A DNA stretch of 20,793 nt from a virus, in IMG/VR virus record IMGVR_UViG_3300031760_004315; one strand, 5' to 3'. Below, in pieces: positions 12,490-12,737 of this stretch. The position numbers were made by a program, and so were the translations under genes. Positions within the stretch are counted from its first letter, which is position 1, and each line of letters starts with the position of its first letter. Under the pieces are notes generated by a model. The model was not told where the DNA came from. It searched no databases and worked only from the letters and a program-made list of their open reading frames with translations.

Positions 12490-12521
12490 GTCAATAGATA
12501 ATATAATTACCTATTGACTTT
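12479..12521 (-). terminator. palindromic terminator around the stop codon of the HPr-like gene
   Basis: Perfect 11-bp inverted repeat aaagtcaatag / ctattgacttt (12487-12497 and 12511-12521) with a 13-nt loop containing the TAA at 12507-12509. On the minus strand it is followed by ATTTTTAT. Confidence 0.6.
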
Positions 12522-12737
12522 AAACTGTTCAATGAATTTTTCAAAATCTGGTGCAGTCTCTGGATATGTAATAGTAACATTCTGACTCATATCGATAGAA
12601 AAAACTCCTAGTATAGACTTAGCATCAATTACATGCCTTCCGCGTCTAACAGTAATATCCCCATCTACTTTCTGAGTATTGGCGACAAAATTGTATACAT
12701 CATTCAATCCTTTTATTGAAATAATCATTTCTTTCAT
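12507..12737 (-). CDS. HPr-family (PTS phosphocarrier fold) protein lacking the phospho-His; Crh-like
   Basis: 76 aa. The C-terminal two-thirds align by eye to HPr (DAKSILGVFSIDMSQNVTITYPETAPDFEKFIEQFK vs [40 protein letters not shown]). In the N-terminal stretch (GLNDVYNFV vs GIHARPATV) the His15 position is Asn. The Ser46-context KSILG is retained. Confidence 0.5.
   Translation of the reverse strand: MKEMIISIKGLNDVYNFVANTQKVDGDITVRRGRHVIDAKSILGVFSIDMSQNVTITYPETAPDFEKFIEQFKVNR

What the first reader, a model, noticed from the sequence alone, without database searches (positions are those of the whole stretch)
12507..12737. Crh-like HPr paralog without the phospho-His: possible hijack of carbon-catabolite signalling
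The 76-aa product aligns by eye to the HPr fold. The strongest match is around the Ser46 region (KSILGVFS vs KSIMGVMS) and the C-terminal helix. The His15 position is Asn (GLNDVY vs GIHARP). That is the pattern of Crh, the HPr paralog in Bacillus that can be Ser46-phosphorylated by HprK and binds CcpA. A phage copy could mimic or titrate P-Ser-HPr, HprK or CcpA and so rewire host catabolite repression during infection. The gene has its own consensus promoter and a palindromic terminator.
Basis: inference. Interest (0 to 1): 0.55.

Follow-up and report, generated by a model that had tools for sequence, protein, structure and literature searches.

The report
Short His-less HPr-like phage protein
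A large gut phage carries a real, conserved 76-residue gene for a trimmed HPr sugar-signalling protein that lacks the phosphate-carrying histidine but keeps the regulatory serine; it belongs to a large, unstudied family shared by Clostridia and their phages, so it may tamper with host metabolic signalling, but this is untested.

Summary

The "Crh-like" label is only partly right. The protein scores 24 bits against the 123-bit cutoff of the best-scoring NCBIfam HPr-family equivalog. It belongs instead to a separate family of about 75-aa His-less HPr-fold proteins. That family has about 4,000 clusters on phage-sized contigs. A cellular branch has at least 7,980 clusters in Clostridia chromosomes, named only "HPr family phosphocarrier protein". 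The cellular gene lies head-to-head with mtaB in 41 of 80 loci. In phages the gene sits in RNA-repair or nucleotide-metabolism modules.

It cannot be a PTS phosphocarrier. The most likely role is regulatory, through the invariant serine and helix-B face, possibly engaging host HprK/P and partners of P-Ser-HPr. That step is inference. I found no published study of the family.

The parts
12507..12737 (-). 76-aa ORF for a short His-less HPr-fold protein. S41 is the Ser46 equivalent and the core motif is K40-S41-I-L-G44-V-F46-S47-I-D49.
12748..12754 (-). Shine-Dalgarno-like AAGGAGA, about 10 nt upstream of the ATG.
   Evidence: Read directly from the sequence. Similar GGAG sites precede the homologs in relatives.
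12768..12796 (-). Sigma70/SigA-type promoter: TTGACA (12796-12791), 17-nt spacer, TG extended -10, TATAAT (12773-12768).
   Evidence: 12 of 12 match with TG. Conserved at 11-12 of 12 with TG in relatives L001, L002, L004 and L010. It is one of 7 sites scoring at least 11 of 12 in the window, all on the coding strand.
12486..12522 (-). Intrinsic-terminator-like hairpin with a 17-bp stem and 3-nt loop, followed by UUUAUUUUUAU. The 5' arm is formed by the last four codons and the stop codon of the gene.
   Evidence: Terminator scan. RNA fold dG -17.9 kcal/mol, z -7.25, 0 of 200 shuffles as stable.

Best explanation
The gene encodes a phage member of a distinct, short (about 75 aa) branch of the HPr superfamily. 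Clostridia chromosomes and many large Clostridia-type phages share this branch.

The protein keeps the HPr open-faced beta-sandwich and the Firmicute-type Ser46/helix-B surface. It has lost the His15-Arg17 phosphotransfer loop. It therefore cannot shuttle phosphate in the PTS.

Host RNA polymerase probably transcribes it as its own unit from a consensus promoter.

Its most likely action is regulatory. It would use the invariant serine and the hydrophobic helix-B face to engage proteins that normally read HPr. Candidates are the host HprK/P kinase/phosphorylase (as substrate or decoy) and partners of P-Ser-HPr (CcpA-like, FruR-like or metabolic enzymes). That would shift the host's carbon and energy-state signalling during infection.

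Shown: the fold, the loss of His and Arg, motif conservation, family distribution, purifying selection, and the promoter and terminator.
Inferred: expression timing, serine phosphorylation, and the identity of the partner.
For: - Fold and homology.
- Loss of His15 and Arg17 with a 5-residue shorter loop.
- In 126 diverse representatives found by HMMER, with no motif pre-selection, S41 is Ser in 125 of 126. It is the most conserved column, followed by G44 (117) and K40 (101).
- By contrast, the N-cap position of helix A (position 10) varies freely among S, T, G, N and D. Helix capping alone therefore does not explain a Ser-only position 41.
- At sequence level the family matches Firmicute HPr and Crh (E 6e-8 to 4e-3). 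No E. coli-type HPr or NPr appears among the sequence hits at E<=0.01, although they match by fold.
- The gene is real and constrained: dN/dS 0.10-0.17; about 4,000 clusters.
- Independent transcription unit with a strong host-type promoter, conserved in 5 of the 8 clade members examined (the window and 4 of 7 relatives).
- Host-side plausibility: HprK and regulatory P-Ser-HPr signalling operate in gut Oscillospiraceae (PMC11906611). Crh binds CcpA only after Ser46 phosphorylation by HprK/P (PMC4591507).
Against: - No experiment or complex model links this protein to HprK/P or to any partner.
- Ser46 is also conserved in HPr of bacteria that lack HprK/P (my knowledge), so an invariant Ser is not proof of phosphorylation.
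- The helix-A end of the HPr interaction face (His15, Arg17), which I recall contributes to both the HprK/P and CcpA interfaces, is missing or remodelled.
- Gene neighbourhoods never include PTS, hprK or ccpA genes. Bacterial copies pair with mtaB and lie near RNase R. Phage copies sit in RNA-repair or nucleotide-metabolism blocks.
- The host of this phage is unknown. There are no cultured relatives.
Confidence: 0.4

Rival explanations
1. It supplements or mimics the cellular short HPr-like protein, whose job has nothing to do with catabolite control. It would be a phosphorylation-independent adaptor acting on RNA/tRNA transactions or nucleotide supply, and the conserved serine face is simply its binding surface.
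For: - The bacterial homolog lies head-to-head with mtaB (tRNA ms2t6A methylthiotransferase; TIGR01579, 450 bits) in 41 of 80 loci, even where MtaB identity falls to 34%. It also lies near RNase R, a 2-thiouracil desulfurase and a cysteine desulfurase-type enzyme (Aminotran_5).
- In the window's clade the gene is embedded between an RNA ligase and a Pnkp-like kinase and phosphoesterase, down to 47% identity.
- In 10 of 26 other phage groups it lies just upstream of nrdD/nrdG, near thymidylate synthase and dUTPase genes.
- The cellular family is 80-96% identical across genera, as expected for a core function.
Against: - The linkage differs between lineages (RNA repair, NrdD, or SleB/RecA in Enterocloster phages). 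It may reflect inherited synteny in early-gene modules.
- The gene has its own promoter and terminator, so it is not co-transcribed with the RNA-repair genes.
- A divergent arrangement with mtaB is not an operon.
- The bacterial loci were sampled with a motif pattern and come mostly from related orders.
Confidence: 0.3
2. It is a true Crh equivalent. HprK/P phosphorylates it, and it then binds CcpA at the HPr site as co-repressor or competitor.
For: There is no His and the Ser46 motif is retained. The family profile scores Crh (E 3e-5) better than B. subtilis HPr (E 2e-3 to 3e-3). Crh's mode of action is established (PMC4591507).
Against: - 24 bits against a 123-bit cutoff for the best-scoring NCBIfam HPr-family equivalog, NF010354.
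- Arg17 is absent, although Crh retains it (A4).
- The active-site loop is trimmed and the protein is about 10 residues shorter.
- Its closest relatives are the short Clostridia family, not Crh.
- P-Ser-HPr2 did not bind the CcpA homolog in F. prausnitzii.
Confidence: 0.08
3. It is a ligand- or metal-binding HPr-fold module, like the 3H domain of NiaR, that senses a small molecule.
Confidence: 0.05
4. It is a working PTS phosphocarrier, as the database names imply ('phosphocarrier protein HPr').
For: It hits Pfam PF00381. JGI, NCBI and the phage PMBT24 record use such names.
Against: No His15 or Arg17 equivalent appears in any alignment register. Positions 9-12 are variable and rarely His. It falls below the TIGR01003 cutoff (20.5 against 47.9 bits).
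Confidence: 0.01

Closest known systems
HPr (PtsH) of Firmicutes, e.g. Thermoanaerobacter tengcongensis HPr (PDB 3le1/3lfg), Ruminiclostridium cellulolyticum HPr (7ff5), B. subtilis HPr
   Different: There is no His15 or Arg17, and the b1-a1 loop is 5 residues shorter. The C-terminal helix is shorter (76 aa against 85-88). G54 is replaced by an invariant Asp (D49) and N43 by Asp (D38). It falls below the TIGR01003 and equivalog cutoffs. It cannot perform PTS phosphotransfer.
Crh (catabolite repression HPr) of Bacillus
   Same: An HPr paralog without the phospho-His that keeps Ser46, making it a purely regulatory HPr-fold protein. This is the best functional analogy.
   Different: Crh keeps the full-length loop with Gln15 and Arg17, is 85 aa, and by my recollection lies in the yvcI-whiA operon. 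The phage protein fails the best-scoring NCBIfam HPr-family equivalog (24 against 123 bits). It belongs to another clade with different contexts.
Cellular short 'HPr family phosphocarrier protein' of Clostridia (e.g. Pseudobacteroides cellulosolvens, Acetivibrio, Anaerotruncus; 75 aa)
   Same: The same length, the same trimmed loop, and the same D-[AG]-K-S-I-[ML]-G-[IV]-F-S-L-D core. Full-length identity is 35-43%. This is the family to which the phage protein belongs.
   Different: The bacterial branch has an H-x-D-D-C signature after strand 4, where the window's clade has Y-P-E-x-A. It is chromosomal, often head-to-head with mtaB. It too is uncharacterised.
Phage HPr-like proteins already in databases (Enterocloster phage PMBT24 'phosphocarrier protein HPR'; UniProt A0A8S5S213 from Siphoviridae sp.)
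   Same: The same short HPr fold in phages of gut Clostridia (34% identity to PMBT24; BFVD TM 0.81).
   Different: They sit on different phage backbones with different neighbours (SleB-like hydrolase, RecA). They are annotated automatically. I found no functional study.

Membership tests
HPr superfamily (Pfam PF00381 / HPr fold) | Sequence profile match above the curated threshold | tested here: met
   PF00381 at 25.2 bits against GA 23, E 1.7e-5. hhalign probability 98.1%.
HPr superfamily (Pfam PF00381 / HPr fold) | Open-faced b-a-b-b-a-b-a sandwich | tested here: met
PTS phosphocarrier HPr (TIGR01003 / PtsH) | Active-site His15, the phospho-acceptor from Enzyme I, with Arg17 | tested here: not met
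   No His or Arg equivalent in any register; the loop is 5 residues shorter. Positions 9-12 are variable across the family.
PTS phosphocarrier HPr (TIGR01003 / PtsH) | Score above the NCBIfam subfamily or equivalog cutoffs | tested here: not met
   TIGR01003 20.5 against 47.9; NF010352 19 against 110.
Crh (catabolite repression HPr) | Non-His residue at position 15 in an otherwise intact G-L-Q-A-R-P loop (Arg17 kept) | tested here: not met
   His is absent, but the loop is truncated and Arg17-Pro18 are missing (Crh sequence in A4).
Crh (catabolite repression HPr) | Conserved Ser46 in the K-S-I-M-G context | tested here: met
   K40-S41-I-L-G44. S41 is Ser in 125 of 126 unbiased family representatives.
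Crh (catabolite repression HPr) | Equivalog-level sequence similarity | tested here: not met
   NF010354 (PRK13782), the best-scoring NCBIfam HPr-family equivalog and by my recollection the Crh model, gives 24 bits against a cutoff of 123.
Crh (catabolite repression HPr) | Ser46 phosphorylation by HprK/P and phosphorylation-dependent binding to CcpA | not testable with these tools
   This needs biochemistry or complex modelling. The only background available is the literature.
Short His-less HPr-like family (unnamed; Clostridia and their phages) | 72-81 aa; loop 5 residues shorter; [STGND]-x-x-[DE] cap at helix A; G-D turn at 26-27; D-[GA]-K-S-[ILV]-[ML]-G-x-[FML]-S-[LI]-D core | tested here: met
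   Alignments A1, A2 and A3 and the column statistics. 2,953 representatives at E<=1e-3. Bacterial members.
Known anti-phage defence proteins (PADLOC) | Profile match to any defence-system component | tested here: not met
   No PADLOC hit for the protein or its immediate small neighbours.

The most novel reading that the evidence does not exclude
The short His-less HPr-fold proteins form a previously unrecognised adaptor or signalling module of Clostridia that is tied to RNA/tRNA transactions rather than sugar transport. Three observations fit this: the head-to-head pairing with mtaB in bacteria, the proximity to RNase R, and the position inside a split Pnkp/RNA-ligase repair block in this phage clade. 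On this reading, phages deploy their own copy to control tRNA repair or modification, or nucleotide supply, during infection.
Probability: 0.1. Interest if true: 0.75.

Novelty: new variant of a known kind. Interest (0 to 1): 0.5.

Why it matters
HPr is the central node linking sugar supply to gene regulation in Firmicutes.

A viral protein that keeps only the regulatory half of HPr would be a compact tool for phages to rewrite host metabolic signalling. I found no published example of a phage doing this.

The work also exposes a very large cellular family: at least 7,980 clusters at 90% identity, 80-96% identical across genera. Databases label its members "phosphocarrier", yet they cannot carry phosphate on histidine. 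Their role in gut and cellulolytic Clostridia is unknown.

Cultured Enterocloster bolteae phages (PMBT24, CB457P1 and relatives) carry homologs, so the question can be tested experimentally.

Tried and rejected
- Nucleotide search of the region against 50,697 phage records found no match, so there is no cultured close relative.
- PHROGs gave only a non-significant hit (E 0.18).
- PADLOC gave nothing, so a defence-system role was rejected.
- The first genome-contig scan with the broad alignment A2 failed because no stretch was conserved enough. It was redone with A3.
- The afdb50 fold library was unavailable.
- The P0119 hit (1,100 aa, 10 stretches) is a cadherin-like repeat protein. It is a false positive and was discarded.
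- Literature searches for phage HPr, short or His-less HPr in Clostridia, C. thermocellum HPr/HprK and the Enterocloster phage phosphocarrier found no study of this family.
- I could not retrieve papers listing the HprK/P-HPr or CcpA-HPr contact residues. Those contacts are cited from memory only.
- I considered that the neighbouring AAA_33 kinase might be an HPr kinase. This was rejected because its best matches are polynucleotide kinases (bacterial Pnkp, E 3e-14) and it has no HprK domain.
- I considered D13 as a phospho-His mimic. It is better explained as the N3 residue of a capping box, because position 10 carries typical N-cap residues.
- No tRNAs are present in the window, so there is no host clue from that source.

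Full report
**1. What is in the sequence**

The minus strand of 12507-12737 holds a 76-codon ATG ORF. An AAGGAGA ribosome-binding site precedes it.

A perfect TTGACA-17-TATAAT promoter with a TG extended -10 lies at 12796-12768.

A 17-bp hairpin at 12522-12486 follows the gene. Its 5' arm is the last four codons plus the stop codon, and a U-rich tract follows it. The fold energy is -17.9 kcal/mol with z = -7.25, and none of 200 shuffles folds as well.

The window has seven promoter-like sites scoring at least 11 of 12. All are on the coding strand in intergenic gaps. The promoter therefore marks an independent, host-RNA-polymerase-type transcription unit, but it is not unique to this gene.

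The same promoter is kept at 11-12 of 12 with TG in four of seven relatives examined.

The window is 32.7% GC. It equals a whole 20,793-nt JGI contig, on which JGI calls the product "phosphotransferase system HPr-like phosphotransfer protein".

**2. Is it an HPr?**

Yes, by sequence and by fold.

- Pfam PTS-HPr scores 25.2 bits against a gathering cutoff of 23 (E 1.7e-5).
- A profile of 42 family members hits Thermoanaerobacter HPr at E 6.4e-8, Crh at 3e-5 and Bacillus HPr at about 1e-3.
- A profile-profile comparison of 81 diverse members with an HPr/Crh alignment gives probability 98.1% and E 7e-14.
- The AlphaFold model has pLDDT 96.7 and the order E2-6, H11-22, E29-32, E35-38, H42-46, E54-58, H63-72.
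- Foldseek returns only HPr, Crh or NPr as its top 39 PDB hits, with best TM 0.77. The next fold is PII at probability about 0.14.

The gene is under purifying selection, with dN/dS 0.10-0.17 against relatives at 68-72% identity.

**3. What is kept and what is lost**

S41 aligns with Ser46 and is the N-cap of helix B. The motif K40-S41-I-L-G44-V-F46-S47 mirrors the Firmicute K-S-I-M-G-x-M-S.

The phosphotransfer loop is 5 residues shorter. Three methods give three registers:
- HMMER pairs N12 with H15 and deletes R17-P18.
- hhalign deletes H15-A19.
- DSSP makes G10 the N-cap of helix A.

All three agree that no His15 or Arg17 counterpart exists.

I examined 126 diverse representatives found by exhaustive HMMER, with no motif pre-selection. 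S41 is Ser in 125 of them and is the most conserved column. Position 10 varies among S, T, G, N and D, which are typical N-cap residues. D13 is D or E in 99 of 126, which fits the N3 residue of a capping box.

My inference is that capping alone would tolerate T, N or D at position 41. The Ser-only pattern therefore suggests an additional role.

A caveat applies. The bacterial and viral loci were retrieved with the pattern (V)D[AG]KSI[ML]G[VI]. Their motif invariance is therefore circular, and I did not use it as evidence.

**4. Which family**

It is not Crh and not PtsH. All NCBIfam HPr-family models fall far below their cutoffs. The best-scoring equivalog, NF010354, gives 24 bits against 123. 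TIGR01003 gives 20.5 against 47.9.

Instead there is a large family of 72-81-aa proteins:
- 2,953 representatives at 50% identity reach E<=1e-3.
- About 4,000 clusters at 90% identity match the family profile. Almost all are metagenomic, and their longest contigs are about 100-150 kb.
- 186 IMG/VR contigs fall into 26 groups at 60% identity.
- Cultured Enterocloster bolteae phages carry a 34%-identical copy annotated "phosphocarrier protein HPR".
- BFVD contains a matching viral model at TM 0.81.

The family also has a cellular branch.
- At least 446 loci occur in Clostridia genomes, including isolate chromosomes of Anaerotruncus, Pseudobacteroides cellulosolvens, Acetivibrio, Papillibacter, Butyrivibrio and Hespellia. 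Full-length identity to the window protein is 35-43%.
They are 80-96% identical across genera and are named only "HPr family phosphocarrier protein".
- These proteins too fall below the NCBIfam cutoffs.

**5. Context**

*The window.* It encodes an NAD-dependent ligase, GyrA and GyrB, an endolysin with SH3 domains (a domain set that, to my knowledge, is typical of Gram-positive hosts), PIN-PhoH, a metallophosphoesterase, an AAA_33 kinase whose best match is bacterial Pnkp, an RNA ligase, a vault-shoulder-like protein and a flotillin-like protein.

*The window's clade.* The order RNA ligase, small ORF, HPr-like, Zn-ribbon ORF, kinase, phosphoesterase, PhoH, endolysin, gyrase is kept in contigs of about 135-151 kb. 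It holds down to 47% identity of the HPr-like protein.

*Other phage groups.* Ten of 26 groups place the gene just upstream of nrdD/nrdG, with thymidylate synthase, dUTPase and a P-loop kinase nearby. The Enterocloster phages place it beside a SleB-like hydrolase and RecA. The phage-side linkage is therefore lineage-specific. It is best read as residence in early or metabolic modules.

*Bacteria.* The gene is usually a stand-alone unit. In 41 of 80 loci it lies head-to-head with mtaB, with a median gap of 238 nt and MtaB identities down to 34% (TIGR01579, 450 bits against a cutoff of 357). RNase R, a 2-thiouracil desulfurase, PurL or a DinG-like helicase sometimes lie nearby. No PTS, hprK or ccpA gene is a recurrent neighbour.

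**6. Mechanism**

Shown: an HPr-fold protein that cannot accept phosphate on His, with a strictly conserved Ser/helix-B face, encoded as an independent unit behind a host-type promoter.

Inferred (confidence about 0.4): it acts as a regulatory HPr surrogate. It would engage HprK/P as substrate or decoy, and/or partners of P-Ser-HPr.

The sequence-level affinity is for Firmicute HPr and Crh. No E. coli-type HPr or NPr passes E<=0.01 by sequence, although they match by fold.

Gut Oscillospiraceae have HprK and use P-Ser-HPr2 as a co-activator of FruR. Binding to the CcpA homolog was not detected there (PMC11906611). Crh needs Ser46 phosphorylation to bind CcpA (PMC4591507).

Three points weigh against this reading. 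The helix-A end of the interface (His15, Arg17) is missing. By my recollection of the 1KKL, 1RZR and 1ZVV complexes, it contributes contacts. Ser46 is also conserved where HprK/P is absent. And no genomic linkage to catabolite-control genes was seen.

The main rival (about 0.3) is a phosphorylation-independent adaptor that copies the unknown function of the cellular short protein, perhaps linked to tRNA/RNA or nucleotide metabolism.

**7. Novelty and verdict**

Its interpretation is partly supported. "HPr paralog without phospho-His that keeps Ser46" is right. "Crh-like" fails the membership tests. "Hijack of CcpA signalling" remains an untested hypothesis and needs a broader target list.

Eight literature searches found no study of phage HPr-like proteins or of the short cellular family.

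I rate it a new variant of a known kind, with interest 0.5. It is a concrete and testable lead: cultured Enterocloster phages carry homologs. It is not yet evidence of a new mechanism.

Noticed in passing
window 15448-17952 (-) and 18088-19617 (-): An 834-aa protein carries a Major Vault Protein shoulder domain (PF11978, E 9.8e-26) plus a Vault_3 repeat. Next to it is a 509-aa SPFH/Band7-flotillin protein. By tblastn against the phage collection, the vault-like protein matches only uncultured 'huge phage' records LR756500, LR756501 and LR756503 (462-735 kb) at 44-45% identity. Relatives L006 and L008 keep it upstream of the RNA-ligase block.
   Followed up: partly
window 11074-14226 (-): A split Pnkp-like RNA-repair set. 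It comprises an RNA ligase (12949-14226; PF09414 + PF21189, DRB0094-type), an AAA_33 kinase whose best match is bacterial Pnkp (11633-12151) and a Metallophos_2 phosphoesterase (11074-11631). A 95-aa Cys-rich (CxxC...CxxC) ORF at 12135-12422 overlaps the kinase start by 17 nt and is conserved in relatives. Some relatives also carry a DUF2828+DUF7788 protein of about 500 aa upstream.
   Followed up: partly
bacterial loci L012-L091 (e.g. L037 4456-5760 and 6001-6228): The cellular short HPr-like gene lies head-to-head with mtaB (tRNA ms2t6A37 methylthiotransferase) in 41 of 80 Clostridia loci, with a median gap of 238 nt. This holds even where MtaB is only 34% identical. RNase R and a 2-thiouracil desulfurase lie downstream in the Acetivibrio/Pseudobacteroides group.
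   Followed up: partly
IMG/VR loci L094-L160 (e.g. L152 7623-9812): In 10 of 26 sequence groups of phage HPr-like genes, the anaerobic ribonucleotide reductase genes nrdD and nrdG follow within about 1.5-2.5 kb on the same strand. Thymidylate synthase, a dUTPase fusion, a YAcAr/SLOG protein and an unclassified P-loop kinase lie nearby.
   Followed up: partly
protein P0044 (157 aa, metagenomic): A tandem duplication of the short HPr-like domain within one polypeptide. Both copies keep the GKSLMGI(L/F)SLD motif.
   Followed up: no
window 9109-10368 (-): A PhoH-like ATPase fused to an N-terminal PIN domain (419 aa). It is conserved at the same position in most of the related contigs.
   Followed up: no
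window 173-6820 (-): The phage encodes an NAD-dependent DNA ligase with a BRCT domain, full-length GyrA and GyrB. A 99-aa ORF of unknown function (4606-4905) lies between the gyrase genes.
   Followed up: no
window, minus strand: 19699, 12796, 6949, 6878, 2265, 2182, 161: Seven near-perfect sigma70-type promoters (at least 11 of 12, five with TG) all lie on the coding strand in intergenic gaps. This implies that much of the region is read by unmodified host RNA polymerase.
   Followed up: partly
window 12785-12952 (-): A 55-aa hydrophobic ORF, probably a small membrane protein, lies between the RNA ligase and the HPr-like gene. A bidirectional GC-rich hairpin (12882-12899) sits inside it. A small ORF occupies the same position in several relatives.
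   Followed up: no
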